DNA of 64,000 nucleotides from a virus. This document shows, in pieces, positions 22,818 to 60,728 of the stretch. The stretch covers positions 1-64,000 of the IMG/VR virus record IMGVR_UViG_3300020468_000003. The stretch is one strand, 5' to 3'. Within the stretch, counting starts at the first letter, position 1. The number at the start of each line of letters is the position of its first letter. The notes under the pieces are model-generated. The model had not been told where the DNA came from, searched no databases, and was given only the letters and a program-made list of their open reading frames with translations. The translations under genes and the position numbers were made by a program.

Positions 22818-23021
22818 TTAGTTTTTAGTCAATTCAGTTAGTAGTTTCTTTATTTCACTTAATTCATTCTTTACATCTTCAAGTTCTTTCTTATCATTCA
22901 TCCTTCTTTGTTTTTCAGAAAGATATTGAGAATACCCAAAAGTATCCTTATTCACAATAGCACCAGACTTTGCATCTCTGTACAAATTCTTCTCGCCTTC
23001 AACTCTAATTAGTTTAGACAT
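22818..23021 (-). CDS. Small hypothetical protein
   Basis: V.G..NLYRD..SGAIVN.D and a C-terminal coiled coil. Confidence 0.7.
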   Translation of the reverse strand: MSKLIRVEGEKNLYRDAKSGAIVNKDTFGYSQYLSEKQRRMNDKKELEDVKNELSEIKKLLTELTKN

Positions 23022-34700: not shown

Positions 34701-37700
34701 AACATTAATAGTAAATGCAGTTGATGAAGTTACAGTAACTGCAGTTGTTACTCCTGCAATTGGGTCATGAGGACGAGGATAAGCATGAACAGTAGCAAAA
34801 TGATCTCTTGCACATTTAAAGTTAATACTTCCTTCATCAAGAGTAATAGTATCGCTAGTGCTCATTCCATGTGCAGAACTAAATGATAATGTTAATACCC
34901 CAGATATTGCATCATAAGACGCACCGTTAGGTGTTTTCTGATTACCTACCTCTGAACCACTTTGAACGTTTACAGCACCTGTGGACGCAGAATCAAACGT
35001 ATGTAAGTAATTTCCACCATAATAAATGTTATTTGCTGTACTATACCAGAACTTATGTTTGTTAGTCTTAACTTCTGCTGTTATGTTTGCAGTATTCCCT
35101 ACATGTCCAGGTTCATATACACTAACACCAATTGCTACTCTTCCATTATAACCAGATCCAAATGCTCTAGCAGTTGAATTATAGTATGGATAGACAGTTC
35201 CAAATCCAACATAAGTTTGATCAAATGTGCTAATTCCAATTTTTACTTTAATATTTGTGGAATCAACAATTTCAGTTATTCGGAATATATTACCTAAAGT
35301 TGAATTACCATATGTTGTAATTCCTAATGCACTAGTAAATCTCGCACCCTCAAGATAAACATCTTGGTTTTGTGCATTTAAATTATGAGCAGTTCCTGTA
35401 GTTAGATCTAATATTCCAGTATTAAAATCATAAGAAGCAGTGCTTATTGATTTGCCAGGTGTAGTAAAGGTTGGAATACCAATTATTCCTGATATTGAAC
35501 CACCTGCACCGATAACAGGTAGAACATCAGCACCTAATAGAGGAGCAAATCCTAAACCAGTTGTAGATCCAAGAGATATTATTAATCCACCTTTAGGGAA
35601 AGCATTTTGATTAGGATCTTGCAGTGAAACTACAGGAGTTCCATCAGTAGATGTTATACCTGTAAATGTAATTTGAGAATCTGAACCAGATTGTTTGTAG
35701 AAGAAATTATTTCCTGCATTATTATCTGTTGTTGGAGTTTGGAATATTCCATTTATTAATACTAACCCACTTCCAGTCTCTATACCAGTTGTACTAACTC
35801 CTGATTGTCTAACTGTAAATGTTTGAGCAATACCTGTAAATTCATTAGAAACATCATCATATATTAAATTATTTGTATAATCCTTTCTCAAGAATACTCT
35901 TCCATTAAATTCAGAGAATCCTTTAGGGAGATTACTTTCATTAATAGTTACTAAACCACTTCCTTTTGGTGGATCAGTAAAGAATATATTTTGTCCAGCA
36001 AAGTTATATGAACCTCTATAAATTCTTGCTGCGGTTCCATCAGTGTGTAGTGTTGCTGCAGTACCAACATAACCTCTTATAACTTCAACTAGTTTTACAT
36101 CGCCATCACTTATTGGTCCTACTGATGTTGTTCCTAGACCAACACCACCAACTTTCATAAATTCGTTATCAATTTTTAATATATCTCCATTACCTATGGA
36201 AGTAATACCAGTCATTGAGAACACTGTTGATGCTGTTCCTATTTGTCCACCATTTGCTTCTAAATCATAAACTATTGGTGTATATGAAAGTGGAGATTGA
36301 ATTACATCATCAATAGAAATTATTGCTTTCTCTAACTTCTTAACCATTTCAAAGGAATGTTTATTACCACTTCCTTCATCTGTAAATGTTACTGCAATTC
36401 CTGCAGCTGCATATTCAGGTCTTGTAGCAATTTTAAACTTTTCGTTATTAGTTCTAATTGCATAAACTTGATATGGAAGTTTGTTAGTTACAATACCAAT
36501 AGAATCAGCAGTTACTCCAATACCAATAGAGGTTGATGTAAGTCCTGCTACTGATGATCCTGCTCTGTAAATTAATTCTTCTCCAGTTTCAAAGAAATGG
36601 TTTGTTATTGAAAATTCACCAGTTACCTTGTTTAAAACTGTAGTCTCTGATGGATTCCAGAATTTTTGGAATATAGGTGTATCCTGATAATCCATTCTGA
36701 AGGATGTTTTATTAATTCTTGAACTATTAGTTGCATCAAATAAACCAATACCAAACTCTTGTGTTTTGATAGAACCATAATTAATATTTTGATATAGATT
36801 TTCTATTTCTACTTCTTGATATAATACTTCATTAAATGATTTAATAGTAACAATTCCAGTTACAGAGGAATCAGGGTAGAATTTAACTGCAACATTTGAA
36901 CCATCAATAGCAGCACCAAATGTTCCTATTCCAGTTGTACTTCCGATTGATAAGAAAGGATATTGAGTAGAATAAGTATCTGTACTATCAGGACTTAATG
37001 TTAATATTTGATGTAATGCATAGGTTGCACCATAACTTACACTAACTAAAGATTTAATAGAGTTAGTTAATGTTGCATCTGCACTAAAGATTGTAGTTTC
37101 TCCAGTACCAACTGTAGAATTACCTGAGAAATATGCACTTCTTTCGTTACCATCTGCTTGAGAAGTTCCTATCTTAAATCTTAGAGCACCATCAGCATTA
37201 GATGTAGAACCAAATCCAACAGCATTCGCTCTAACAGTTACTGGAACAGTAAGTGGGTTTGTATATGATAATGTTAATTTTCCATTTGCTACAGATGCAA
37301 CAAAGTTTGAGAAATCATTCCCATTAAAACCTTGAGCTGAATCTGAATCAACATAGTAATCACTTACATAAGTGTCAGTTCCGTCATGATGAACATATAA
37401 TTCAGTATAGTTCTGAGTATACAAATCATTTGCATTTAAATGTAAATGAACGTGCATAGCATCAAAGTTATCAGAATCATATTCAAGTATAGTATTAGTA
37501 GAACCAACTCCTACAATAGCATTTGTAGACTGGTTCTTTATTAAACCAATAGATGTGGATGCTAGTCCAACTACGTTGCCATTAAATGTATCTTTAATAA
37601 ATTTAACATCATAATCAATATTGAATACATCATTAGGTGTAAATCTTAGAGATAAAGTGTCAAACTCATCAACATTACCTTCTAATGTGGCAAATTCAAG

Positions 37701-40700
37701 TTCTGTCCAATTATATTCGTTTGTTGTTGTATTTGCTATACCTGTAGATGATAGATATCCTTTCCTTAAAGTAAATGCAGATTCAAATTGTGGATCATGA
37801 AGTACAATCATTTCATAAATTGCATTTTGTAAGTTATTGGTACTTCTAATTTGAACCAAATATCTTGCAAAGTCTTTTCCAGATTCATCTAAATCTATAA
37901 ATGTATCATTTACATTTTCTTTGTTTGTAAATTGCTTGCTTACATCATCAATTACAAGAACTCTATTTGTTTTACAAATAATACTATCAACAAAACTCTT
38001 AAATCTAAACTCAAGGAACTTGGAAGTATTTCTACCTTCTATTAGTTGATTATCAGCATCTCTAGCTTGAGCAAACCCATAAATTGTATCAACTCTAGAT
38101 TCATCTATTAGATCTGTGAATATTAAGGATTTTACAGTTGTTACTCCTATACCAACTGAAGTATTGGTTGATAATCCAACATCAACAAAGTTCTTTAAAC
38201 CAGTCGTATGGACTAAACGATTAATTACATCTATTGAATCTTTATACTGAATAGGACTCTTAACTGAGTATGATAAATTTTGATAATAATCATTGTCAGG
38301 AAGGACTTGAATATCATTATTAAGTTCTCCTGTATTTTTCTTCCATCCTCTATTTGCTCTTACAGAGAAATCAATATCAAATTTAGCATCACTCTTGATA
38401 ATTGCTTCTATAGTTCCACTTGAACCAGATTGTACTCCTCTAAGGGAATCTCCAGATTTTACTTCAAATTTTCCAGATGTTTTAATATAATCTGGTAAAA
38501 CTGTAGTTACATTTAAGTCTGTTGATTCTCCGTTAACAAATAATTGCTCACCTGATACAAATTTACTCTTACCTTGAGTAACTTTGAATACAGGATAATT
38601 AGATCTCTTAACTATAGTTGCAAATGATCCCTGAGTCGTATCTGCTAAACCTGGATTAGTAGTTAAACCTGCAACACTAAATTTAAGTTTTGCTGGTATT
38701 AAATTTTCATAAGATATTACATCAAAGAATCTGAATCCATAATCTTCAGAGTTAAATCCACTACCACCTATTCCATTTTTAGTAATTCCTTCTACAAATA
38801 TTTGTTCTCCGACAGTAAAGATAGAAGTACTGAATCCAAGTAGAGGTGTAGTTAAGAAACAAGTAACTATACCACTACTTGAAGTTTGCATAGTGGATAT
38901 TCCAACACCATTACTATTATTAATAGTGAATAAATTCTTACTATTAAAATTAAGTCCAGATGGTTGTTCAAATATATTAATAGAAGAAACTGAACTAGAC
39001 TGAACCTCAGTAGTTAATATACCATCATCAATTTTTTCTCCTGTAATTGAATCTACGATTGCAATATCAGGTGCTGTTGTGTAATTATTTCCACCATCGA
39101 CTATTTGTACATCTGTTATTGTTAAATTAGATTTTAACTCAAGTGTAGATGGTATATTTGCTTCAGGTCTAAGAGATTTATCTGTATTATACTCAAATGC
39201 TTGATCAATAACTCTTATTTCTTTTATCTTACCTACTGTTGGAGATTGAGCAAATAATACAGCATCAGAACCATTTAAAGTTGTAATACTTGAAATACCA
39301 GGCAATTGCTTGTAATCATTACCTTCTGATACCATTTTAAGTTTAGAAATAGGTCCTAAAGCATTCTTAGAATCAGTACTATACTTCATAGTAGTAGTAT
39401 TGTCTGGTGTGTAAAGATTTAATTCAGGATCTTTAAGTAAGGATATCACAAATGAAGTGGAAGCTACACCAACAACAGAGTATGTTCCATCATACTTACT
39501 ATTATCAAATGTAATTTGGTTAAAATTAACAACTGTTGAATCTGCTGTGGATATAAATCCACCTTTTTCTACATTATAGAATAATGGTTGTGTAGGATCT
39601 GGTACAACATCAATTAGAGCATCTGTATATGTTAATGTAAACGAAGCAGTAGATGTTACACCAACAGTTCCAACACCTGAAGTTGAGAAAGTTGTTGTAT
39701 TTGCAACAGATACAAATTGATTTTCAAATGTTTGATCGGTATATAAATTAAACTTAAATCCTTGTAATGTGGAATCTGATAAATCAAATACAACATTATT
39801 ACCTTTAGTTGGGAATAATCTTGGGTTGATTGCTGATAACTCTTGTTCTGCTCCACCTGTAGATCCTATGGATACAATCTTAGGAGGTGATGCAATAGAA
39901 TCTTCATATGTAAGAGCAAGTTTGAATCTATTCTTATCAATCTTGTAAACATAAAATAAACCAGGTTCTAATCCAGTTGCAACTTCATCTTGAGCATTAT
40001 AATATATTTTTTCCCCTGTTACAAATGGATGATTATTAAGTGTTACTATATTATCTAAAGTATCAATGGCAGTTGAAGTAAATCCAATAGGATCAATAAC
40101 TAATTTCTCTATATCAAAGTTATACTTAACTCTTACTTTTGTTGATGTTCCAATTCCAACAGATCTATTTGGTACAACACTTAATGAAATTTGATCATCT
40201 GGTTGTAAGTTATGTGCAGTTGATACAGAAATTACCGCATCATTTTTTTGAACTACGCATATAATTTTATTCTTAGTGGGTTCTAAAGAATATTCATAAT
40301 TATCTGAACCATTACTAAAGAAGAATAAACCATTTGTAGATGTTGTTAAACCAGATTGAGTTACAATACCAATAAAGTCTGATGATTTATTAATAACAAA
40401 AAGATTCTGATCAGTATCCCCAATATCAAATGTTGCAGAAGATTCAGTATTTGCTACAGAAATAGAACTACCACCAGCATTTTTTCTTAAAATTACTCTT
40501 TCTCCACTACGGAAAGGATGGTTAGGTAAGTAGATACTTTGATTAGCAATTGATATATCATAGTTTCTATCTCCTAAAGGATATTCTATTGTACTTTCAA
40601 TACCTGCAGTAGATCCAACACCAACAGATTCAGTAGGATTAAAGAATACTTTTTCATTTAATGATGAATCAAAGAAAGAAGATTCTATTGGAATTTCAAA

Positions 40701-43700
40701 TGTATTAGGATAAACAAATCCTCTAGTAGTAGTTGTATGTGCTGTGCCTGTAACACCTCTCTTTGCTCTAATTATTCCTCTTTCATTGAATATATTCAAT
40801 ACTGATAATACTTCAGTTCCAATACCGATTGTAGATCCAATTGATAATGAATTAGGTATACTAGAAACATAAATGTCTGTCATAATACCAGAAGAACCAT
40901 TAGCAGGTATATCCTGATATATGTTAAAGTTTTCTGTAGATATTGCAACTCTTCTCAATCCTGCAATCTGATCTACAAATGTTGATAAACCACTTATAGA
41001 AATTACATCATTAGTATTGAAAGTGTGGAAAGGATCAACTTTAACGGTTATCTTATTGTTGCTCCATTGTAAAGTACAATTTGTAAATTCTGAAACAGAA
41101 GATGCTATAGAAGTTACTGTTGCACCTTCTACTTTAGAAATGATTGCACTTGCACCACCACCATTAGTCCCTTCATTATCAAAATTAATTACATCGTCTA
41201 CTTTATAGTTAATTCCAGCATTTCTAATATCCACACCTGTAATAGATCCTTTAGTAGTAGATTCGATTTCTGATTCTTGACTAAAGAAACTTTGAGATTC
41301 AATAATAAAATCATTTCTAGATCCAGTTATACCTAACTGATGTGGGAAAGTATTTCTAACTAACTCTGATGAATTTAAATCAAAACTTTGATCTTTATCA
41401 TCTAATTGATTTAATGATCTAAATCTCTTACCTACAAAGTAAGGGAATTTTGGAGTAAATAAACCATCAGTTGATATACCTGCAAAATATGCATAAGTTC
41501 CATTTGGATATTCTGGAGTTTTACAGAATCTTGTATTATGAATATCTAAATCTCCAGTAGCATCATATCTGTAATCTTCAATGAAGAATCCATTTGCAAA
41601 TCCGCTTGGACGATCTACAATAATAGATGGATCTAATTTATAACCTACTTGTAATGGTCTTACACCCGATGTAGGATCAAGAGGATCGCTATAACCAAAA
41701 GGGCCGTAGATTGGATGTCCATCATAAGCATATCCAATGATTGGAGAGTGTGTTGTTCCTGTATCATTAAATTCTCCAGATGCTATTTCATTTGAATAAG
41801 ATAGATTAACATATTCCAATCCTTTCTTAAGAGTAGGATACAAATATTCAGATCCATGTCTTTGAGCATCATTTATAATTAGAGATCTAACACTACTGGA
41901 TAATATTGCATTTTTACCTGCTGATGTAACACTAATACTAGTTTTTGCTTGTGTATAATTTGTTCCTTCAGATATAACAACTACTTCTATAAGTTGACCA
42001 TCTCTTATAATAGGACGAACTACTGCACCACTACCATCTCCAACTACTATTGCTTCAGGAACAGAGAAATATTCAGATCCTCTAGATCTAACATCAACTC
42101 TAATAAGTTTACCACCAACTACAACAGGATATAATGATGCACCTTTACCATTTTTAATACTAACACTAGGAGATCTCTCAAAGTTTAATGTTGTGCTTCC
42201 ATATCCAGTTCCAGTTTCATAAAGATAAGCATCTATAATATTACCTCTAACATAAGGTGTTGCTGTGATAACCCCTGTACCTGCTGCACCGAACGAAACG
42301 TTAATGTTTAACTTTATGTCTGGATACTTGAATTGGTGGAACCCAGACCCAACAGAGTCTAATTTAATGTATAACTTACTATCATAATTATCTCTAATAG
42401 TTCCAGCAACACCTGCATCAGCAACTCTAAACTGATCTTTACTTTTCTCAAAGATATAATATTGATTAGTAGTAACTAATCCAGATATAACAGTTCCTGA
42501 ATTTTGATATTCTACTAAATCACCTTCTTGGAATCCATGATTTTTAAAATTAACAAGATGATCTATAGTAGATATGCCAACTGGTTTAACACTTAGCTCT
42601 CTATTTTGATAATTAGAACCTCCTTCTATAACTCTAATTGATTTTAAAGTCTTCTTACCATTAAAAGTCCTAAATCTATGAATACCAGAATTAGAAGTAG
42701 TAGTAAACCCAACAGTATTAATACCAGTTTTGAAATCAGTTTCGGAGAAATATAATCTAATTGTTTTTGAGTTTACAAATTCTGCGATATATTTTGTATT
42801 CTCTATTAAAAATCTATTCTGATCTGCATTAGAAGCAGCAAATGTTCCTATCCCTAATGCAGGATTACCATTTGTTCGGTATACAACTTCTTCTCCATCT
42901 GCAAAATTATGTTCTCCTAAAAATGTAATAGTTTCTGCAGTCTCTCCTATACCACCACCAAATGTTAATAATCTAGCATCAAAACTAGCACTTAAGAATG
43001 ATTGCTCAACAACTGGTTCTAAAGCAACACCATTACCAGGACCTCCACCAGTTATACTAACAGAAATAACTTTATCTAATTCTTTTGTTTGAGGATCTAC
43101 TAAAATTTTATCAACAGATCCACTAAGAACTGGTCTTACAAGTGCTGTTGTTCCTGATCCAGTATTTGCAACCTCCATAGTTGGTGGATTTATAACATCA
43201 TAACCAGTTCCTGAGTTTACTACGTTTACAGATGTTAAAGGACCTGAATATATTTTATCTTGAGATTTGTAATTCTTAATCTCAACACCATTTATCATCA
43301 TACCCACAGTTTCTGTGGTAGTATCTAATCCATCATTCTCTCTAGGTATTAACGGAAACTTTCTAAGAAGTTTTTGTGGTTCAATTTGTTTTTGATGAAC
43401 AGATCTTAAAGTAAAAGTATGTTTTCCTCCAACTCCTACAATTAAAGGATCAAATTCAAGATTTAAATCTCCTTGGATAAAAGAGTTTGATGAATAAAGT
43501 TTAATTTTATTTTTATCGTTTAATACTCTAACGTAATATGATTTACCTGTATCTAATCCTGTGATTGCTACATTTTCTGGTTCATAAACAACTTCATCGC
43601 CAGTTAAAAATGGAACGTCAGTAGGGAAATTGATAATAGAATATGCCAATTCTCCTGTATCTGCTTGTAGAGCATTAGTTTCCGTGTTTCCTGCACCAAT

Positions 43701-45491
43701 AAAGGTTATAGCAGTTCCAACCACTATAGATGGTGTTGAAGGTACAGTGTCTTGTCTAAATGTATAAGATGGAAGAGAGTTAGATGCAACATACAAAAAC
43801 TCTTCACCATAAAATCCAAAATCAAGATCTTCGCTATAAACGTTCTGTACGTCCGCAAATAAGTCTGAATATTGTAGAGGTACAAATTTACTTGTAGTCT
43901 TCTTTGGTACTCTTCTAATCGAATGTGGGATGCTTGCATCAGTGCTAAATCCAGTATAATCTAGTGTTACTTGCTTATCATTAAAATCAATAGCAGTAAC
44001 TTTAGCATTTGTTAATTTTACCTCTTTAGTGCTATCGTTTATAATATCAACGCGATCATTTATTTTTAAACTTGCTTTATCAATTGTAGACTTTAAAGTA
44101 AACTGTTTTGTACCTGTATCAATATTAGAACATTCATAACTGGAACTAGTATTGTATATGAAAGAATTAGCAAATCTTTCCTTATCAGTTCTATCTGCTG
44201 CTGATACTGGATTATTAATTACATCTCCTAATTCTTTAACTGTTATTTTTTCATTAACTAATGCAAGACCTGCATCTTTTGCAAGATTTATATTTGATAC
44301 TATTGCTGCTACTCTTAAGTTAACTGGTTTAGTGAAATCTCCATTTTCGTAACCAAATATAATTTTGTCAGATCTAATATCAGCAGCTGCTGTAATATCA
44401 TTATCAATACCAGAACAATTTAAAAATTGGTTTATTGTTTTATCAGTATATGTTATAGTGTTAATACCACTAAGAACAGTTCCAGTTGCATCAAACCCAA
44501 CAGTAGAATCAACTGTAATTACTGAAGATCCAGCTGAAACATTAGTTATAGATTTTGTATTAGGAGTTACTTCAAAATCCCCTTCAATGAGATCTTTATT
44601 ACTATATCCAATAAACAGTGCTAACTTATAATATGTCTTATTATTTCTAGTTAATATTTCAATTTCAGATACTGCTGCTTTTGTTCTAGGATTACTTTTA
44701 CTATAAATTGTTTGTCCTACTAATTTATTAACATCTCCTGATAGTTTTTCTACTAAAACTATTTCTCTTCTAATATATTCTGCATCAGAGGGTTTTAATA
44801 GAAACTGTTCTAAGTCAATAACAGAAGGTGAAACACCAAATAAAACTTTGTAGAGTATTCTAAATGATTCTTCTGTACCTTTTGATTGATAAAAAGTTCT
44901 TGCTTCTTTAATAAAATTACCAGCATCCAATTCAGGTACGAAACCTACATCTTCTAAACCAGGTGTATATGAATATTTTATCTTTTTATAAAATTCTTTT
45001 AAAAATAAAGAACTTAAATTCTGTACTGGAGATTCATTAGTATGATCTGCACTAACCGATGTATCAAATACAAGTTCTTCTGAATCACTAAGACTATGGT
45101 AGGATGTTATTCCACTAAAACCACGTACACAACCTGTAAAAGTATTTGTAGTTAAACCAGTATATGTAATTATTTCATCATCAATCTTAAGAAGACCATA
45201 TTCATTAGGAAATCCTCTTGTACTTTCAACAGTAATAGTACTATCTGTTGAAACAGAATCTGAAGTAAGAGAAGTAACACCTACAATAACTTGTGGTGTT
45301 AATTGGTCAAGACTTAAATACTGGTCAAGATTATCAACCAGGTCAATAGGACCTCCTTGATACTCCTGTGAACGGTAGTATTGCTGAAAGAATTCTACTG
45401 TCTTAGGACTTTGATCTAAAATATATTCAGGTAATTGTCCTTCTATCAGTTGGTGAACCTTTACTCTCGATTCGATACCAGTTTGTATCAT
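31731..45491 (-). CDS. g7: Giant baseplate wedge initiator (gp7-like), 4586 aa
   Basis: QLPE....P....F...YY, FY.SKGT..SF..L..VLFG, DNDYYQ..SYS.KS, V..LVH..G.K.F; lies between g6 and g8; many inserted domains. Confidence 0.8.
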   Translation of the reverse strand: MIQTGIESRVKVHQLIEGQLPEYILDQSPKTVEFFQQYYRSQEYQGGPIDLVDNLDQYLSLDQLTPQVIVGVTSLTSDSVSTDSTITVESTRGFPNEYGLLKIDDEIITYTGLTTNTFTGCVRGFSGITSYHSLSDSEELVFDTSVSADHTNESPVQNLSSLFLKEFYKKIKYSYTPGLEDVGFVPELDAGNFIKEARTFYQSKGTEESFRILYKVLFGVSPSVIDLEQFLLKPSDAEYIRREIVLVEKLSGDVNKLVGQTIYSKSNPRTKAAVSEIEILTRNNKTYYKLALFIGYSNKDLIEGDFEVTPNTKSITNVSAGSSVITVDSTVGFDATGTVLSGINTITYTDKTINQFLNCSGIDNDITAAADIRSDKIIFGYENGDFTKPVNLRVAAIVSNINLAKDAGLALVNEKITVKELGDVINNPVSAADRTDKERFANSFIYNTSSSYECSNIDTGTKQFTLKSTIDKASLKINDRVDIINDSTKEVKLTNAKVTAIDFNDKQVTLDYTGFSTDASIPHSIRRVPKKTTSKFVPLQYSDLFADVQNVYSEDLDFGFYGEEFLYVASNSLPSYTFRQDTVPSTPSIVVGTAITFIGAGNTETNALQADTGELAYSIINFPTDVPFLTGDEVVYEPENVAITGLDTGKSYYVRVLNDKNKIKLYSSNSFIQGDLNLEFDPLIVGVGGKHTFTLRSVHQKQIEPQKLLRKFPLIPRENDGLDTTTETVGMMINGVEIKNYKSQDKIYSGPLTSVNVVNSGTGYDVINPPTMEVANTGSGTTALVRPVLSGSVDKILVDPQTKELDKVISVSITGGGPGNGVALEPVVEQSFLSASFDARLLTFGGGIGETAETITFLGEHNFADGEEVVYRTNGNPALGIGTFAASNADQNRFLIENTKYIAEFVNSKTIRLYFSETDFKTGINTVGFTTTSNSGIHRFRTFNGKKTLKSIRVIEGGSNYQNRELSVKPVGISTIDHLVNFKNHGFQEGDLVEYQNSGTVISGLVTTNQYYIFEKSKDQFRVADAGVAGTIRDNYDSKLYIKLDSVGSGFHQFKYPDIKLNINVSFGAAGTGVITATPYVRGNIIDAYLYETGTGYGSTTLNFERSPSVSIKNGKGASLYPVVVGGKLIRVDVRSRGSEYFSVPEAIVVGDGSGAVVRPIIRDGQLIEVVVISEGTNYTQAKTSISVTSAGKNAILSSSVRSLIINDAQRHGSEYLYPTLKKGLEYVNLSYSNEIASGEFNDTGTTHSPIIGYAYDGHPIYGPFGYSDPLDPTSGVRPLQVGYKLDPSIIVDRPSGFANGFFIEDYRYDATGDLDIHNTRFCKTPEYPNGTYAYFAGISTDGLFTPKFPYFVGKRFRSLNQLDDKDQSFDLNSSELVRNTFPHQLGITGSRNDFIIESQSFFSQESEIESTTKGSITGVDIRNAGINYKVDDVINFDNEGTNGGGASAIISKVEGATVTSIASSVSEFTNCTLQWSNNKITVKVDPFHTFNTNDVISISGLSTFVDQIAGLRRVAISTENFNIYQDIPANGSSGIMTDIYVSSIPNSLSIGSTIGIGTEVLSVLNIFNERGIIRAKRGVTGTAHTTTTRGFVYPNTFEIPIESSFFDSSLNEKVFFNPTESVGVGSTAGIESTIEYPLGDRNYDISIANQSIYLPNHPFRSGERVILRKNAGGSSISVANTESSATFDIGDTDQNLFVINKSSDFIGIVTQSGLTTSTNGLFFFSNGSDNYEYSLEPTKNKIICVVQKNDAVISVSTAHNLQPDDQISLSVVPNRSVGIGTSTKVRVKYNFDIEKLVIDPIGFTSTAIDTLDNIVTLNNHPFVTGEKIYYNAQDEVATGLEPGLFYVYKIDKNRFKLALTYEDSIASPPKIVSIGSTGGAEQELSAINPRLFPTKGNNVVFDLSDSTLQGFKFNLYTDQTFENQFVSVANTTTFSTSGVGTVGVTSTASFTLTYTDALIDVVPDPTQPLFYNVEKGGFISTADSTVVNFNQITFDNSKYDGTYSVVGVASTSFVISLLKDPELNLYTPDNTTTMKYSTDSKNALGPISKLKMVSEGNDYKQLPGISSITTLNGSDAVLFAQSPTVGKIKEIRVIDQAFEYNTDKSLRPEANIPSTLELKSNLTITDVQIVDGGNNYTTAPDIAIVDSITGEKIDDGILTTEVQSSSVSSINIFEQPSGLNFNSKNLFTINNSNGVGISTMQTSSSGIVTCFLTTPLLGFSTSIFTVGEQIFVEGITKNGIGGSGFNSEDYGFRFFDVISYENLIPAKLKFSVAGLTTNPGLADTTQGSFATIVKRSNYPVFKVTQGKSKFVSGEQLFVNGESTDLNVTTVLPDYIKTSGKFEVKSGDSLRGVQSGSSGTIEAIIKSDAKFDIDFSVRANRGWKKNTGELNNDIQVLPDNDYYQNLSYSVKSPIQYKDSIDVINRLVHTTGLKNFVDVGLSTNTSVGIGVTTVKSLIFTDLIDESRVDTIYGFAQARDADNQLIEGRNTSKFLEFRFKSFVDSIICKTNRVLVIDDVSKQFTNKENVNDTFIDLDESGKDFARYLVQIRSTNNLQNAIYEMIVLHDPQFESAFTLRKGYLSSTGIANTTTNEYNWTELEFATLEGNVDEFDTLSLRFTPNDVFNIDYDVKFIKDTFNGNVVGLASTSIGLIKNQSTNAIVGVGSTNTILEYDSDNFDAMHVHLHLNANDLYTQNYTELYVHHDGTDTYVSDYYVDSDSAQGFNGNDFSNFVASVANGKLTLSYTNPLTVPVTVRANAVGFGSTSNADGALRFKIGTSQADGNERSAYFSGNSTVGTGETTIFSADATLTNSIKSLVSVSYGATYALHQILTLSPDSTDTYSTQYPFLSIGSTTGIGTFGAAIDGSNVAVKFYPDSSVTGIVTIKSFNEVLYQEVEIENLYQNINYGSIKTQEFGIGLFDATNSSRINKTSFRMDYQDTPIFQKFWNPSETTVLNKVTGEFSITNHFFETGEELIYRAGSSVAGLTSTSIGIGVTADSIGIVTNKLPYQVYAIRTNNEKFKIATRPEYAAAGIAVTFTDEGSGNKHSFEMVKKLEKAIISIDDVIQSPLSYTPIVYDLEANGGQIGTASTVFSMTGITSIGNGDILKIDNEFMKVGGVGLGTTSVGPISDGDVKLVEVIRGYVGTAATLHTDGTAARIYRGSYNFAGQNIFFTDPPKGSGLVTINESNLPKGFSEFNGRVFLRKDYTNNLIYDDVSNEFTGIAQTFTVRQSGVSTTGIETGSGLVLINGIFQTPTTDNNAGNNFFYKQSGSDSQITFTGITSTDGTPVVSLQDPNQNAFPKGGLIISLGSTTGLGFAPLLGADVLPVIGAGGSISGIIGIPTFTTPGKSISTASYDFNTGILDLTTGTAHNLNAQNQDVYLEGARFTSALGITTYGNSTLGNIFRITEIVDSTNIKVKIGISTFDQTYVGFGTVYPYYNSTARAFGSGYNGRVAIGVSVYEPGHVGNTANITAEVKTNKHKFWYSTANNIYYGGNYLHTFDSASTGAVNVQSGSEVGNQKTPNGASYDAISGVLTLSFSSAHGMSTSDTITLDEGSINFKCARDHFATVHAYPRPHDPIAGVTTAVTVTSSTAFTINVGASVNSSVSISTASYEPSTGDLVLNLGAGHGFTAAGILTTSSASYNPSTGVLTVNTSTAHGMVTGERVQLADNSFTFTCAKDNNISEHYYPREDDPASGRWLAITKVDADTFTVVVGTSSDTSTHTFVGSQPGNIRTDGPNGSIGIHTRSLTFRCAQDNFATDHSYPRATDPIHRAVLGIGATTTETITVNAGTSVNGTGGQVEFTIVDGGSGYTNPDVLVDEPTYTDLDITGVSRRGIGATTVTGINELINLKLGANSSPIFANRFADAADLIEANKLIIADISVGEMLDVYPSFSVPGGSQNCKDDVVDVLEAVAFNLRFGGNDEIWDAANLYITGAHVAGEEQESIYVFHAARDLANKVINNVAIAKSDYTTRDQVFDLTITADPAVGYNTDANGCANVRSSINSFIGIVTSSIGFGTVTSKKSFAPAKFFEVSDFSIKGAGYAFQLGDVFAPVGLVTAKGLKKPLKPFELEVVEVFSDRFASWQFGQLDFIDPIDNLQDDVRTVFPLFYNAELVSFQIDTNDNDSKLIDIDATLVVFINGVLQEPTKAYLFDGGSSIQFLEAPKKEDKVSIFFYNGTRSIDSVETDIAESVKVGDTLSVRKASGIQTSVNQSEGRIVYDIASSDRIETNAYADAGIDEFNDRSVNWTKQKRDIFINGEKISKARDSIEGMVFPTSRIIRDVNVGDTDILLDNGQFFNYEENESSVVTAYVDAVVLDEINTVSAAATATVDSSGKVTATTITNTGFGYTTATVDVKFSSPKFIGVGIGTTATGTATITNGAVASISVTNVGLGYTNSLNTPVPPQIIIPQPRLINEVVTNIQSVQGNTGIITGISTVAGIGTDLAIKFFTNNTTDLQVGYHIVVTDSTVGSGVTSIYTHDNDIIGVGTEFVDNIFRVHQIPVANEIVCNIKSDTITTGIQTLGTSIYNPNGYYSWGRLTNLVRNSEPIAIGISGRTVTAGLSTYPLIQRRGYGLRDNGAIRKTLPD

Positions 45492-50366: not shown

Positions 50367-50585
50367 TTAGTATGAATGATCATCAAGAGAGGGGTTTTCC
50401 ACCTCTATTTTTTGTGCAGGTAACTTAGTATATGATAGGTCTTCTTCTTTATATGATGTATGCATTAGACCAACCATTGCTTTAAGTGTAGTCCAAGTAA
50501 CTTTGAAATCTTCTTCTTTTACCGAATGTAATATACAATCCTTACCTGCGTAAAAATGATATATGGTATCAGTTTCTTTAATCAT
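50367..50585 (-). CDS. Hypothetical protein
   Basis: ORF track; coupled to the upstream ORF. Confidence 0.7.
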   Translation of the reverse strand: MIKETDTIYHFYAGKDCILHSVKEEDFKVTWTTLKAMVGLMHTSYKEEDLSYTKLPAQKIEVENPSLDDHSY

Positions 50586-50757
50586 CTTCTTTTTCTTTTA
50601 AGATTAATTCGTTATCTGAGGATATGTCTAATTGTAGCATAGTTCCCTCATACCATCCCATATCGTTAACCATCCACTCAGGCAGATCAATCATGAAGTT
50701 CCCAGTTATGGGATCGACCTCTACAGGCGAAAAATTTTCTGCGGGATTTTTTTGCAT
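50578..50757 (-). CDS. AbrB/MazE-like swapped-hairpin DNA-binding protein
   Basis: Probable start MQKNPAENF; VEVD...G...I.LPE......GW.EG..L.......LIL pattern. Confidence 0.6.
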   Translation of the reverse strand: MQKNPAENFSPVEVDPITGNFMIDLPEWMVNDMGWYEGTMLQLDISSDNELILKEKEDD

Positions 50758-51093: not shown

Positions 51094-51516
51094 TCATACT
51101 GCGAACCTCTTCTTTCCATGGTAGAAGTTGTATTCTCTGCACATGGTTCTAACCTGTAGATCTGTATCCCATTCTGTATCCTCTGGAAATAGGTTGTCTA
51201 ACGTTCTGATTCTGCTGATCTTCTGCCAGACTGAAGAGGTGCTATGCTTAGTGTTTGGAAACTCAGAAAAGAATACTGCTCTTGCTGATTCCATGTCCGC
51301 ATGGTTCAGTAGGTACGCATTTAATAGGCACTCTGTCTCAGCATCTGTATAAGGTGTCTTTTTCTTAGATGCTGTTCTTTTAGCGTCCTCTAAAAGTTTT
51401 CTTCCGTGCTTGAATAGCAGTCTGTCTGCTCTCTCAAAGTTGTGTAGTCCTAAGTACTTAACCTGTTCCTTAAGTTCGTTGAATGTGTCGATTGCTAACT
51501 GGTCTGTTGAGTTCAT
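51094..51516 (-). CDS. Hypothetical protein with a Myb/SANT-like helical segment
   Basis: PYTDAETECLL.AY........A...F...FP...HS.SSV.QK...I. Confidence 0.6.
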   Translation of the reverse strand: MNSTDQLAIDTFNELKEQVKYLGLHNFERADRLLFKHGRKLLEDAKRTASKKKTPYTDAETECLLNAYLLNHADMESARAVFFSEFPNTKHSTSSVWQKISRIRTLDNLFPEDTEWDTDLQVRTMCREYNFYHGKKRFAV

Positions 51517-58449: not shown

Positions 58450-58583
58450 CTCGTAATGATTTCCTGTAACGATGCAAGATCATCCCAAGTTTCATCATCT
58501 TCTTGAATGAATGGACAGTCCATTGCTCTGTCGAGTGCAGTACTGAAGCGATCTAGTTGCTCATCAGTAAGTTTGAAGTTCAT
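58446..58583 (-). CDS. Small acidic protein (45 aa)
   Basis: Manual translation MNFKLTDEQLDRFSTALDRAMDCPFIQEDDETWDDLASLQEIITR; GGAG RBS. Confidence 0.7.
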   Translation of the reverse strand: MNFKLTDEQLDRFSTALDRAMDCPFIQEDDETWDDLASLQEIITR

Positions 58584-58605
58584 AGAAATCTCCGTGTATA
58601 AACTC

Positions 58606-58663
58606 ATTATAGACAAAAAAATCCCCCTTGCGGGGGACTAGTGGACAGTTTCTAGACTGGCAT
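58606..58663 (-). promoter_or_regulatory. Early module 11
   Basis: GTGGACAGT-TTCTAG-ACTGGCAT, TCCCCC/GGGGGA hairpin, TATAAT at 29 bp. Confidence 0.85.
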
Positions 58664-58897
58664 AGGCAATCCATAACTGATATGATACATATCCATCATA
58701 TAATCTCTTACTCTCTCCCGATCAAGGGAATCTCCATCTCCCCACGTAACCTTAAATTCAGCAAGCGGGTCGCTGCAGTCATCAAGATATTTGAGCGTTG
58801 CATATGCGATTTGCTCTTTAGAGACGTTGAGGGGATACAACCCACCTTGCCCGTAGAATGAAAACACATAATCGATGAACTCCTGAAAATTGTGCAT
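58652..58897 (-). CDS. Hypothetical early protein
   Basis: FIDYV.SFYG..GLYP...GDSLDRERVRD. Confidence 0.8.
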   Translation of the reverse strand: MHNFQEFIDYVFSFYGQGGLYPLNVSKEQIAYATLKYLDDCSDPLAEFKVTWGDGDSLDRERVRDYMMDMYHISYGLPMPV

Positions 58898-58920
58898 GAG
58901 ATGTTTTTGTATGTATCTTT

Positions 58921-58977
58921 ATCTTATCAGTTCCTGTAGCAATTGGTCATACTATGTGACACTAATATTTCTGGCAC
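58921..58977 (-). promoter_or_regulatory. Early module 12 (first in the array; apparently bidirectional)
   Basis: TGTGACACT-AATATT-TCTGGCACA; TAAGAT at 28 bp on the minus strand and TATAAT (59009-59014) on the plus strand. Confidence 0.7.
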
Positions 58978-59026
58978 ACTGGCTGATGCATTCGAGCTCG
59001 ATTTCTCTTATAATAAATTTATAAAC

Positions 59027-59050
59027 AAAAAAAGAGCGGAAGTACGCTCT
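59027..59050 (-). terminator. Rho-independent terminator upstream of the early array
   Basis: AGAGCG-TACTTC-CGCTCT followed by a T-run on the minus strand. Confidence 0.65.
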
Positions 59051-59307
59051 CTAAAATCTTCGCCACTCCCCCTGCCTTATAATATCTCTGTGTTCCTTTC
59101 CTGATATCCAATTCTCGTACTGGCACACTCGCTGTTGCCTTCCCTTTAAAATATGTTACACTTCCTCGAACAAACCATACAAAGGTATGTATATAAAACC
59201 AAAATTTAAACTGTCACATTGTGCCAATCTAGATGCGTCACATGTCGTATAATGTATTACATGCATGAATCTCGATGTGTATCATATGTTACTAGTACAT
59301 GCGTATC

Positions 59308-59655
59308 CTCGTCGAGATGTGTGCCCCTGCTCATATGTGTGTATGATATGTGCAGGCTCGTCGAGATACATGTGCGCAAGCTCGTCTAGATGCATGCGTT
59401 CATGTGTGCGAGCTCGTCGAGATTATGCATAATGATAGATGGATAGCTCGTAGAAATCCTGATTGTTGTCTCGTCGAGAGTTATATTCCTCGTCGAGATC
59501 TAAGTCTTGTGTATAAGACTGTGTACTCTCGTCGAGATCGTCACCTGTTTCATAGTCGAGATCGTACCAGTCTGCGCAGTCTTCGTACATAGTCGAGATG
59601 AATAGAATACTTATAGTATAACACATATCTCGACTAGAGGCAAGCTCGTCGAGAT
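59308..59655. repeat. Cluster of CTCGTCGAGA(T) repeats
   Basis: Exact CTCGTCGAGA at 59308, 59357, 59413, 59470, 59489, 59528, 59645; variants at 59381, 59447, 59552, 59589 and an inverted one at 59627. Confidence 0.9.
59423..59590 (-). CDS. Very acidic Tyr/Asp-rich peptide (55 aa)
   Basis: MYEDCADWYDLDYETGDDLDESTQSYTQDLDLDEEY...; preceded by the promoter TTGCCT-17-TATACT at 59615-59643. Confidence 0.5.
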   Translation of the reverse strand: MYEDCADWYDLDYETGDDLDESTQSYTQDLDLDEEYNSRRDNNQDFYELSIYHYA

Positions 59656-59769
59656 TCACAGTAGTATATATGTACGCAAAAGGATCTATTGTTACAATAT
59701 AGTAACATTGTACTTATAAGACTACAAGTACTTCGCGACCCTGTGTGTTAGGAAATCGCGATCCGTGGG

Positions 59770-59798
59770 TTGACAAACTCCGCGTCTCATGCTACGCT
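59770..59798 (+). promoter_or_regulatory. Plus-strand sigma70-type promoter firing into an AT-rich non-coding tract
   Basis: TTGACA, 17 bp spacer, TGC-TACGCT. Confidence 0.65.
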
Positions 59799-59883
59799 CG
59801 CTAAGTCAACATAAGATCTGAGCATTAAATCATAATACTTTCTCTCTTCTTTATACACATATTATAACACACTTAACATCCTT

Positions 59884-60005
59884 TTGCAATGTACTTGTAC
59901 TTATGGTATAATTAAAAGAACCAGTTATTTAGACAGTTTACCAAAACCTATTCTCAATGTACTTGTACTTATAAATTAGTAATAAGTACATCCTATAAGT
60001 ACATT
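59884..60005 (+). promoter_or_regulatory. HNH gene promoter with a GTAC operator array
   Basis: TTGCAA-17-TATAAT (59884-59912); CAATGTACTTGTACTTAT at 59887 and 59955; inverted ATAAGTACA at 59982 and 59995. Confidence 0.7.
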
Positions 60006-60069
60006 ATATGAAAATTGATAGGTTCATCGGTAGAATCCCTTGGTATGACTGGAGTTTCGCCCTTAGTAT

Positions 60070-60606
60070 GTGTCATGGTTTCTTGAAGTGAGAAAGCATA
60101 AAGTTTTGAATGAAATAGAAGACTTAGAGGATTTCAGTGGTTACTCGATTGATACTGATGGAAACCTTTGGTCTCTGAAGTATAAAGTACCGAAGCTAAG
60201 AAAACCTGTATGGTCTGGTAAAGATGAATGTGCATATCTTACCTGTAGATTGAGAGATGATAATGGTAAAGCAAAGACTCTCTACATTCATAAGTTGGTA
60301 GCATTAGCATTTCTTCCGTGTGATGATCCTACCCGAAGGGTTGTGCATAAGAACAAAGATCGAAGTAACAACCAACTTGAAAACTTAGAGTGGATTGCTA
60401 ACGTAAAGGAGAAGAAGAAAGCATTAGACTTCGTATTACAGGAAGAACTGGTAAATAAGATACAGCGTATTCATGTAGTTGCTCAAAAGAAAGGAATTCG
60501 GGATGTGTCGTCTGATTCTTATTCATTTACCACGAAGATGATCGAAGATGCCATTGAAGCATACATTAAAGAGTATGGACTACGTAAAATTGATAGAGAC
60601 TTATGA
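60070..60606 (+). CDS. NUMOD4-type HNH endonuclease with an RHH-like C-terminal domain
   Basis: GYSID.DGN.WS, Y....L......KT..IH.LVA.AF, V.HKN.DR.NN...NLEW; the main plus-strand gene in the window. Confidence 0.8.
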   Translation: MSWFLEVRKHKVLNEIEDLEDFSGYSIDTDGNLWSLKYKVPKLRKPVWSGKDECAYLTCRLRDDNGKAKTLYIHKLVALAFLPCDDPTRRVVHKNKDRSNNQLENLEWIANVKEKKKALDFVLQEELVNKIQRIHVVAQKKGIRDVSSDSYSFTTKMIEDAIEAYIKEYGLRKIDRDL

Positions 60607-60728
60607 AAAATCCATTTAGAAAGAATAAAGAGACTAACTTGAAGAATCTCTTACAAAAATTGTTCCCAAATCATAAAATTACTGTGGTAAATCATAAAGA
60701 TGGTTCTCAGACCATTTCTCTCTTATAA
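60603..60728 (+). CDS. Small basic peptide (41 aa) coupled to the HNH gene
   Basis: ATGA overlap; MKNPFRKNKETNLKNLLQKLFPNHKITVVNHKDGSQTISLL. Confidence 0.5.
   Translation: MKNPFRKNKETNLKNLLQKLFPNHKITVVNHKDGSQTISLL

What the first reader, a model, noticed from the sequence alone, without database searches (positions are those of the whole stretch)
59308..59655. Iteron-like CTCGTCGAGAT repeat cluster, partly doubling as an acidic peptide gene
SEEN: 7 exact CTCGTCGAGA copies plus 5 variants in ~350 bp, irregularly spaced and nearly all in one orientation. The unit is itself quasi-palindromic (CTCG-T-CGAG). Several copies are non-coding. Others lie in a 55-aa Asp/Tyr-rich ORF (several encoding DLD/LDE), and two overlap or flank that ORF's promoter (TTGCCT-17-TATACT). 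I saw no comparable cluster elsewhere in the window. INFERENCE: a protein-binding array such as origin iterons, a packaging or DNA-entry signal, or an operator sponge.
Basis: partly seen in the sequence, partly recalled or inferred. Interest (0 to 1): 0.7.

Follow-up and report, generated by a model that had tools for sequence, protein, structure and literature searches.

The report
Cyanophage early-promoter operator array, dual-coding
The repeats are real. They are a conserved set of short DNA docking sites built around, and partly inside, the first early gene (a tiny acidic peptide) of a T4-like cyanophage, most likely for a still unknown regulator rather than for replication or packaging.

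Summary
Observation confirmed. There are 7 exact CTCGTCGAGA copies plus 5 variants at 59308-59655, against 0.02 expected, and none elsewhere in the 105-kb contig. The window is an uncultured T4-like cyanomyovirus.

Genes here run on the minus strand, where the site reads ATCTCGACGAG. The same sites recur in more than 119 IMG/VR contigs and in phages S-SRM01, S-T4, P-SSM2 and P-SSM5. They sit at fixed places around one sigma70-type promoter:
- about -155, -120 and -90 from the ATG;
- one, mostly inverted, in the -35/-10 spacer;
- one in the 5' UTR;
- two inside the gene.

The 55-aa ORF is a real, unannotated family (MYDDYDLDY...LAYRHYA). It has 1422 clusters in metagenome proteins and no Pfam or PHROG match. 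Its LDE tripeptides are spelled CTCGACGAG in 67-86% of cases against about 5% expected, so the DNA motif itself is under selection. Relatives without internal sites lack DLDE.

Host genomes show no intergenic sites. I could not identify a binding protein. Homing endonucleases (HNH here, GIY-YIG in 44% of relatives) sit just upstream.

Best reading: an operator array that controls this early promoter. Origin and packaging readings have no specific support. This scan found the same array before on other DNA. I found no published description.

The parts
59645..59655 (-). Exact site directly upstream of the -35 hexamer. On the sense strand it reads ATCTCGACGAG.
59638..59643 (-). -35 hexamer TTGCCT of the peptide-gene promoter.
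   Evidence: The equivalent TTGCAA/TTGCAT/TTGACA is seen in relatives.
59627..59637 (-). Inverted, degenerate site (sense CTAGTCGAGAT) inside the 17-bp promoter spacer.
   Evidence: In relatives, 51 of 78 loci have a site in the two 10-bp bins (-60 to -41 from the ATG) that hold this spacer position, 34 of them inverted.
59615..59620 (-). -10 hexamer TATACT preceded by TG (extended -10). The inferred transcription start is near 59608.
   Evidence: The start site is inferred, not mapped.
59589..59599 (-). Variant site (ATAGTCGAGAT on +) in the short 5' UTR, overlapping the ATG.
   Evidence: An equivalent exact site lies 11-20 nt before the ATG in 62 of 78 relatives.
59423..59590 (-). Gene for a 55-aa acidic Asp/Tyr-rich peptide (MYED...IYHYA), stop codon included. 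Member of a large unannotated cyanophage family.
59552..59562 (-). Variant site inside the peptide gene (encodes DLD-Y).
59528..59538 (-). Exact site inside the peptide gene (encodes DLDE).
59489..59499 (-). Exact site inside the peptide gene (encodes DLDE).
59470..59479 (-). Exact site inside the peptide gene but in another frame (encodes SRRD).
59447..59456 (-). Weak variant (CTCGTAGAAA), 2 mismatches. Membership of the array is doubtful.
59413..59423 (-). Exact site at the stop codon of the peptide gene.
59381..59391 (-). One-mismatch site (CTCGTCTAGAT) in non-coding DNA downstream of the gene.
59357..59367 (-). Exact site in non-coding DNA, downstream of the gene.
   Evidence: It is conserved in L063 and L012 while the spacers between sites carry indels.
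59308..59318 (-). Exact site in non-coding DNA, the last of the array.
59031..59052 (-). Intrinsic terminator-like hairpin plus T run. It is the likely end of the short transcription unit.
59770..59812 (+). Conserved element of about 40 nt upstream of the array (TTGACA ... TACGCTCGCT). It is present in most relatives and in P-SSM2. An earlier scan note reads it as a backward-pointing promoter.
   Evidence: The -10 is weak by consensus and is not listed.
59800..60050 (.). AT-rich tract (26-29% GC) with TGTACTTAT repeats and a divergent promoter pair that shares TTGCAA at 59884-59889.
60070..60606 (+). HNH homing-endonuclease gene, divergent from the array.
   Evidence: phrog_959, E 2.7e-21. GIY-YIG or HNH genes lie at the same place in relatives.

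Best explanation
The repeats are a cis-regulatory operator array built around one sigma70-type early promoter of a T4-like cyanomyovirus. The promoter drives a very short unit: a 55-aa acidic peptide gene, four more sites, then a terminator.

The recognised unit is an oriented 11-mer, ATCTCGAC(G/T)AG on the sense strand. Its left half is invariant, and the whole is nearly palindromic.

I infer that a sequence-specific DNA-binding protein, not yet identified, occupies the sites. They lie next to the -35, inside the spacer, over the 5' UTR and start codon, and inside and behind the gene. Cooperative binding there would most likely shut this promoter off after the first minutes of infection. An activating role for the upstream sites is not excluded.

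Because sites lie inside the gene, the DNA motif dictates part of the peptide sequence (the DLDE repeats). The ORF is therefore a genuine gene, and part of it is an imprint of the operators.

Shown here:
- the motif is real and unique in the contig;
- the motif, its positions and its orientation are conserved across divergent phages;
- synonymous sites are constrained;
- the peptide family is real.

Inferred:
- protein binding;
- repression;
- early timing.
For: (1) Seven exact copies against 0.02 expected, and none elsewhere in 105 kb.

(2) The paired motif occurs in more than 119 IMG/VR contigs. These form 92 groups at the 90% identity level, so the flanks are diverged while the motif stays exact. 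It also occurs in S-SRM01, S-T4, P-SSM5 and AG-345-F15, and as the variant ATCTCGACTAGAT in P-SSM2.

(3) In 78 non-identical loci the sites sit at fixed places relative to the peptide ATG. Counts per 10-bp bin:
- -20 bin: 62 loci
- -60 bin, the bin of the -35/-10 spacer site seen in the inspected examples: 46 sites, 33 of them inverted
- -90 bin: 40 sites
- -120 bin: 17 sites
- -160 and -150 bins together: 20 sites
- +50 bin: 49 sites
- +70 to +90 bins: 59 sites

(4) Orientation is conserved: 370 of 425 sites have the sense-strand A centre. Spacings cluster at 21-24, 30-33, 39-43 and 60-67 bp. Rayleigh R is about 0.31 at periods of 10-11 bp, n=333.

(5) LDE in the peptide is spelled CTCGACGAG in 120 of 139 cases. 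It is 36 of 54 when only loci ascertained through non-coding sites are used. Expectation from codon use in the same genes is about 4.6%. The figure is 14% in neighbouring genes.

(6) Natural controls: the homologous peptides of Sf-CH8 (no sites anywhere in the genome) and S-SKS1 (two upstream sites only) lack DLDE.

(7) Between the window and its close relatives L063 and L012, the sites are kept while the spacers between them carry substitutions and indels.

(8) In relatives, secondary clusters of 2-3 sites lie directly before other small early genes. This fits a small regulon and does not fit a single origin.

(9) In two independent rRNA-depleted metatranscriptomes, RNA contigs cover only 59096-59564 of the region. 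That stretch lies inside the predicted unit. This is a weak hint only.
Against: No binding protein was identified.
- Neighbourhood analysis found no conserved DNA-binding gene.
- A phyletic screen compared 3 array-bearing with 5 array-less genomes and gave no credible candidate.
- The MazE/AbrB-fold protein at 50578-50757 co-occurs with the peptide gene. But it is also present in array-less Sf-CH8 and has a net charge of about -11.
- Host genomes show no intergenic sites, so no host regulon points to a reader either.

The strong orientation bias is unusual for a site read by a symmetric dimer.

In this window the three promoter-proximal copies are degenerate, and the best copies lie in and behind the gene.

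Nothing here measures binding, timing or repression. The phasing statistic is inflated by shared ancestry of the loci.
Confidence: 0.6

Rival explanations
1. Replication origin. The repeats would be iterons for a phage initiator, or the promoter would make an R-loop primer next to the AT-rich tract, as at T4 oriE or ori(uvsY)/ori(34).
For: There are direct, co-oriented repeats. An AT-rich tract of 26-29% GC lies 150-400 bp upstream. Promoters point both ways. The locus is a conserved gene-poor control region at the head of the early block.
Against: No initiator-like gene lies nearby or is shared by array-bearing phages. One site sits in a promoter spacer and one at the start codon. Relatives carry 2-3 separate small clusters, each before a gene. 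Close relatives such as Sf-CH8, and most model cyanomyoviruses, have no array, yet they must replicate the same way. One search shows only a brief local change of GC skew near 60-62 kb. I take that to follow gene orientation and did not test it.
Confidence: 0.15
2. Target or landing pad of homing endonucleases, or a recombination signal for cassette shuffling. The conserved multi-copy motif would be what the neighbouring HNH or GIY-YIG enzymes cut, or a micro-homology that promotes exchange of early-gene cassettes, as PeSL elements do in T4-type phages.
For: An HNH gene lies 415 bp upstream in the window. A GIY-YIG gene lies at the same spot in 25 of 57 relatives and an HNH gene in 3 more. Two of the three S-SRM01 clusters adjoin HNH genes. 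Spacers around the sites differ between relatives by indels.
Against: 15 of 57 relatives have the array without any endonuclease gene. Two unrelated nuclease families would have to share one 11-bp target. The fixed positions relative to -35, -10 and the ATG are not explained by this reading. More likely, the endonucleases exploit a conserved non-essential intergenic spot.
Confidence: 0.1
3. RNA-level element. The copies in the 5' UTR and coding region would be bound in the mRNA by a translational repressor (for example the phage RegA homologue) or would form regulatory structure.
For: The orientation bias would fit a strand-specific signal. One copy sits just before or over the start codon. 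The region is represented in RNA libraries.
Against: Three to five copies lie upstream of the promoter, and one in the spacer is inverted. The predicted transcript folds no better than shuffles, z -1.5. There is no Rfam match.
Confidence: 0.07
4. The repeats have no role as DNA. They would be only the trace of a repetitive acidic peptide (DLDE repeats), or a packaging or DNA-entry signal.
For: Several copies encode DLDE in frame. The peptide family is conserved.
Against: More than half of the copies are non-coding or in another frame. Synonymous positions are fixed. Peptides of relatives that lack internal DNA sites lack DLDE. For packaging, no terminase gene is near. From general knowledge, T4-type phages package headfuls without a fixed end.
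Confidence: 0.05

Closest known systems
Operator arrays inside phage early promoters (lambda OR/OL with CI/Cro; P22 Arc/Mnt; phi29 p4/p6). This comparison is from my own knowledge.
   Same: Several copies of one short, nearly palindromic site overlap or flank the -35/-10 region of a strong early promoter. The spacings are compatible with binding on one face of the helix.
   Different: No cognate repressor gene is known or found. There are 7-12 sites spread over 350 bp. Several lie inside the coding sequence of the regulated gene. The sites are strongly co-oriented. The phage is a lytic T4-like virus.
acr-aca anti-defence operons (promoter inverted repeats bound by Aca repressors; PMC9410906 was listed but not read in detail)
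   Same: A very small acidic first gene lies behind a strong promoter that carries repeats in and next to the core promoter. This is consistent with a burst of expression followed by shut-off.
   Different: No HTH or RHH gene follows in the operon. The function of the peptide is unknown. The fold prediction is poor, pLDDT 62.
Bacteriophage T4 oriE iterons with repEA/repEB (my knowledge; also named in earlier scan note e1-5370214)
   Same: A cluster of direct repeats lies in a T4-type phage, next to a promoter and an AT-rich stretch.
   Different: No repE-like gene is present. Sites sit inside a promoter and a gene. Some relatives carry several clusters. Many related cyanophages have none.
PeSL mobile regulatory cassettes of T4-type phages (PMC2839356; listed, abstract only read)
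   Same: A repeated short regulatory sequence is associated with early promoters in the plastic small-ORF region.
   Different: PeSLs are promoter plus stem-loop units that recur at many cassette borders. Here an 11-bp site is repeated within one promoter region, and it occurs only once in 105 kb.
Early-gene regulatory element of T4-like cyanophages (Doron et al. 2016, ISME J 10:1437; not held in the library, known only from earlier scan notes and my recall)
   Same: It is a palindromic element attached to early promoters of cyanomyoviruses.
   Different: It is a different sequence. In this window the TGGCAC/GTGCCA arms at 58971, 59120 and 59210 probably represent that element. It occurs at many promoters. 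The CTCGACGAG array is absent from Syn9.

Membership tests
Operator array of a phage early promoter | Binding sites overlap or abut the core promoter (-35, spacer, -10, start site). | tested here: met
   In the window an exact site abuts the -35, an inverted variant fills the spacer and a variant lies over the ATG. In relatives 51 of 78 have a site at the spacer position and 62 of 78 in the 5' UTR.
Operator array of a phage early promoter | The sequence is conserved as DNA, independent of coding. | tested here: met
   The motif is exact across 92 diverged groups. Synonymous codons are fixed, 67-86% against about 5% expected.
Operator array of a phage early promoter | A cognate sequence-specific DNA-binding protein exists. 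| tested here: inconclusive
   No candidate came from neighbourhood or phyletic screens. The MazE/AbrB-fold protein is acidic and is also found in an array-less phage. No host regulon was seen. Only half of this genome is available.
Operator array of a phage early promoter | Occupancy of the sites changes promoter activity. | not testable with these tools
   This needs reporter assays or infection time courses.
Iteron-type replication origin (T4 oriE, plasmid and phage iterons) | An array of direct repeats. | tested here: met
Iteron-type replication origin (T4 oriE, plasmid and phage iterons) | An adjacent AT-rich unwinding region. | tested here: met
   59800-60050 is 26-29% GC. Such tracts are common in this 35% GC genome.
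Iteron-type replication origin (T4 oriE, plasmid and phage iterons) | An initiator gene is linked to the iterons or co-inherited with them. | tested here: not met
Iteron-type replication origin (T4 oriE, plasmid and phage iterons) | Replication starts there. | not testable with these tools
   This needs marker-frequency analysis or 2D gels.
acr-aca type operon | A repressor gene (HTH or RHH) lies downstream in the same operon. | tested here: not met
   In the window the unit ends at a terminator after the peptide gene. The second ORF of relatives is acidic, is not found in the 105-kb contig held (about half of the genome) and is absent from P-SSM2.
PeSL mobile regulatory cassette | A promoter plus stem-loop unit repeats at many cassette borders of one genome. 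| tested here: not met
   The motif occurs at one locus only in 105 kb. No associated stem-loop was found in the window.

The most novel reading that the evidence does not exclude
The array and its promoter would be the master early switch of one large clade of ocean and lake cyanomyoviruses, coupling two things. Promoter firing would produce a burst of a DNA-mimic-like acidic anti-defence peptide. The same transcription-plus-binding platform next to the AT-rich tract would serve as the replication origin, an R-loop origin gated by the site-binding protein. The peptide's DLDE repeats would then be a rare clear case of a protein sequence written by overlapping operator DNA.
Probability: 0.12. 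Interest if true: 0.8.

Novelty: new variant of a known kind. Interest (0 to 1): 0.55.

Why it matters
T4-like cyanophages kill a large share of the ocean's picocyanobacteria. As far as I know they lack the T4 early/middle regulators AsiA and MotA, and how they time early transcription is poorly understood.

This finding points to three things:
- a conserved, undescribed cis-element;
- a very abundant, unannotated first early gene, found in hundreds of uncultured phages and in the culturable phages P-SSM2, S-T4 and S-SRM01;
- a clean example of DNA-level selection shaping a peptide.

It gives a defined probe (an 11-mer array) with which to fish out the regulator. It also gives a defined promoter for cyanophage engineering.

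Tried and rejected
- **Rfam:** a scan of 58500-60300 gave no match. The predicted transcript folds no better than shuffles.
- **Literature:** searches for the motif, for a cyanophage palindrome/operator and for S-SRM01 found no description. Doron 2016 is not held.
- **Peptide structure:** pLDDT 62, pTM 0.19, not usable for a fold search. The atlas gave only unnamed clusters.
- **tblastn of the peptide against phage records:** too insensitive; it found only S-SRM01.
- **Host-regulon test:**
  - The 9-mer is rarer than its reversed control in nearly all of the 151 Cyanobiaceae genomes listed. Different dinucleotide content makes that control imperfect.
  - The 13-mer occurs in 49 of 401 genomes, at about chance level. 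29 of 30 inspected sites lie inside ORFs, 11 of them in one 873-aa gene.
- **Candidate regulators:**
  - The 140-aa ORF at 51094-51516 has no homologue in phage records.
  - The MazE/AbrB-fold 59-aa protein co-occurs with the peptide gene in 8 named phages and 30 of 120 loci, always downstream. It is strongly acidic and is present in array-less Sf-CH5 and Sf-CH8.
  - The fam34, 54-aa and second-ORF families are not universal among array-bearing phages.
  - A MarR-like ORF is present in only 4 loci.
  - The phyletic screen yielded only an acidic His-rich 88-aa protein and shadow ORFs.
- **RNA contigs:** the parts without cover prove nothing. An oligo-dT library covered nearly everything and may contain DNA.
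- **No psbA in the contig:** heme oxygenase was used instead to reach host genomes.

Full report
**What the window is.** It comes from an IMG/VR virus contig of 105,044 bp, about 49% complete. Baseplate genes gp6 and gp25 and many small ORFs match Synechococcus and Prochlorococcus T4-like myoviruses. The nearest are S-SKS1, Sf-CH5/8, S-SRM01, P-SSM2/5 and S-T4. Nearly all genes from position 1 to about 59,650 lie on the minus strand. The finding therefore sits at the head of a long leftward block of small early-type genes.

**Check of the observation.**
- CTCGTCGAGA occurs 7 times, all on the + strand, between 59308 and 59654. Shuffles expect 0.02.
- There is no further copy in the whole contig.
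- With mismatches the cluster gains 59381, 59447 (weak), 59552, 59589 and an inverted copy at 59627-59637.
- The ORF is at 59426-59590 on the minus strand, 55 aa.
- The promoter TTGCCT-17-TATACT, with TG before the -10, is at 59643-59615.
- A terminator-like hairpin with a T run lies on the same strand at 59052-59031.
- The layout on the sense strand is therefore: site, -35, inverted site in the spacer, -10, site over the ATG, peptide gene with four sites, four more sites, then about 250 nt of non-coding DNA, then the terminator.
- The sites fall into two reading frames of the ORF and also outside it.

**Relatives.**
- These have 35-50% GC and usually 4-8 copies in about 300 bp. Some have two or three clusters 2-3.5 kb apart.
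- After clustering at 90% identity, 92 groups remain. The flanks are diverged while the motif stays exact.
- Named phages with arrays are S-SRM01 (three clusters, all intergenic), S-T4, P-SSM5 and AG-345-F15, and P-SSM2, where the sites read ATCTCGACTAGAT.
- S-SKS1 has two sites.
- Syn9, S-PM2, P-HM2, P-SSM4, P-TIM68, MED4-213 and Sf-CH5/8 have none.

**Conserved architecture.** The loci were oriented by gene strand and anchored on the peptide start codon. In 78 non-identical loci the sites pile up at fixed positions:

| 10-bp bin relative to the ATG | Sites |
|---|---|
| -20 to -11 | 62 |
| -60 to -51 | 46 (33 with the centre base inverted) |
| -90 | 40 |
| -120 | 17 |
| -160 and -150 together | 20 |
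| +50 | 49 |
| +70 to +90 | 59 |

- In the inspected examples the -60 site lies exactly between a TTGCAA/TTGCAT/TTGACA -35 and an extended -10.
- Of 425 sites, 370 share the sense-strand orientation.
- Spacings prefer 21-24, 30-33, 39-43 and 60-67 bp. Only 44% are multiples of three, and the sites are spread over all three frames.
- The conserved core is ATCTCGAC. The right half varies (GAG or TAG) and the right flank is weak. The site is thus oriented rather than a true palindrome.
- The window's own version has degenerate promoter-proximal copies and extra copies behind the gene. Its close relatives L063 and L012 share this. Between them the sites are kept while the spacers carry substitutions and indels.

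**The ORF is a real gene.**
- 87 loci encode a 42-61 aa peptide with conserved ends, MY(D/E)D... and ...LAY(R/K)HYA. There are 74 distinct sequences.
- A profile search finds 1422 clusters (90% identity level) in metagenome proteins. All are unnamed and none has a Pfam domain.
- PHROGs has no family for it.
- P-SSM2 annotates it as PSSM2_098. S-SRM01 does not annotate it.
- The structure prediction is poor, pLDDT 62.

**DNA selection versus peptide selection.**
- Within the gene, LDE is written CTCGACGAG in 120 of 139 cases.
- Elsewhere in the same genes Asp is GAT 66%, Glu is GAA 65% and Leu is CTC 39%. Independent choice would give about 4.6%.
- The loci were found through the motif, so I repeated the count on 33 loci whose qualifying pair is non-coding. 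The result was 36 of 54.
- In neighbouring genes the figure is 10 of 73.
- The Sf-CH8 peptide (genome without sites) and the S-SKS1 peptide (upstream sites only) keep the conserved C-terminus but have no DLDE.
- So the operators write the DLDE repeats into the peptide, not the reverse.

**Regulon and neighbours.**
- In relatives, secondary clusters of 2-3 sites directly precede two other small gene families. One is S-SRM01 gp177-like, with a site 6-7 nt before the ATG. Neither family is in this contig.
- Directly upstream of the array, divergently oriented, lies a homing-endonuclease gene. Here it is HNH. It is GIY-YIG in 25 of 57 relatives, HNH in 3 more and absent in 15.
- I read this as selfish nucleases settling next to a conserved, non-essential spot. 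A target relationship is a rival that I could not test.

**Who binds?**
- I found no answer.
- Cyanobiaceae hosts show no sign of a regulon. The 9-mer is rarer than its reversed control in nearly all of the 151 genomes listed.
- The 13-mer occurs at about chance frequency, and 29 of 30 inspected sites are inside ORFs.
- Among phage genes, a MazE/AbrB-fold 59-aa protein (50578-50757) shows striking co-occurrence with the peptide gene. It is present in only 8 distinct named phages of 50,697 records, all relatives, and always a few kb downstream.
- That protein is very acidic and also occurs in array-less Sf-CH8. I list it as a lead, not as the reader of the sites.
- A whole-genome presence/absence screen gave nothing credible. 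The co-occurring phages form one clade, so such profiles are weak evidence anyway.

**Expression.**
- RNA-library contigs from four studies were laid on 58600-60700.
- In two rRNA-depleted metatranscriptomes the only cover in the control region is 59096-59564. This lies within the predicted unit (start near 59608, terminator 59031-59052).
- Contigs cannot show ends or strand, and DNA carry-over is possible. This is a weak hint only.

**Conclusion.**
- The placement of the sites in and around one promoter, the small regulon in relatives and the absence of any initiator or terminase link favour an operator array over an origin or a packaging signal.
- The same array was reported earlier in this scan on other genomes, with the same reading: e1-5388599, e1-5342848, e1-5338418, e1-5725705 and e1-5409147.
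- New here are the codon-level test with its ascertainment control, the natural controls (Sf-CH8, S-SKS1), the host-genome test, the homing-endonuclease statistics, the size of the peptide family and the negative regulator screens.

Noticed in passing
window 50578-50757 (-): A 59-aa MazE/AbrB-fold protein, very acidic (net charge about -11). It is found in only 8 distinct named phages of 50,697 records, all of which also carry the acidic peptide gene, and it always lies a few kb downstream of that gene. In Sf-CH8 the two genes are 400 bp apart. It may be a functional partner of the peptide rather than a DNA binder.
   Followed up: partly
window 59708-60003: A second repeat family, TGTACTTAT(AA), has direct copies at 59708, 59895 and 59963 and inverted copies at 59982-60003. 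It lies in the AT-rich tract around a divergent promoter pair that shares TTGCAA (59884-59889), upstream of the HNH gene.
   Followed up: no
window 58971-58993, 59120-59142, 59210-59232: TGGCAC/GTGCCA arms recur (a 23-nt repeat, 87% identical). GTGCCAGT-N-TGGCACA inverted repeats follow many small genes in relatives and in P-SSM2. This is probably the early-promoter element already reported for T4-like cyanophages.
   Followed up: partly
L132:6835-7134 (S-SRM01 90334-90633): An unannotated 100-aa MarR-like winged-helix ORF (Pfam E 0.015) lies in a GC-rich stretch about 270 bp upstream of the third site cluster. Homologues (54-63% identity) occur in three IMG/VR loci; in two of them (L044, L126), by my own reading of coordinates and not a tool count, it lies about 630 bp downstream of a two-site cluster. 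It is absent from this contig.
   Followed up: partly
Relatives, 30-40 nt after the peptide stop codon (e.g. L016:10591-10746): A second conserved 50-aa ORF (M..KR.V.VTLD..CYDDLD..W..LL.LE) follows the peptide gene in 77 loci and in S-SRM01, S-T4, S-SKS1 and Sf-CH8. It is replaced in this window by four extra sites.
   Followed up: partly
Host genomes (G006 family): CTCGWCGAG is several-fold rarer than its reversed control in most of the 151 Cyanobiaceae genomes listed. 11 of 30 inspected 13-mer sites sit at one position of a conserved 873-aa gene.
   Followed up: no
window 31731-45491 and 23021-30115 (-): Giant ORFs of 4586 and 2364 aa lie next to the baseplate wedge genes.
   Followed up: no
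window 59266-59275 and 59649-59658: A perfect 10-nt inverted repeat (TGAATCTCGA / TCGAGATTCA) brackets the whole array. It may simply be two half-sites.
   Followed up: no
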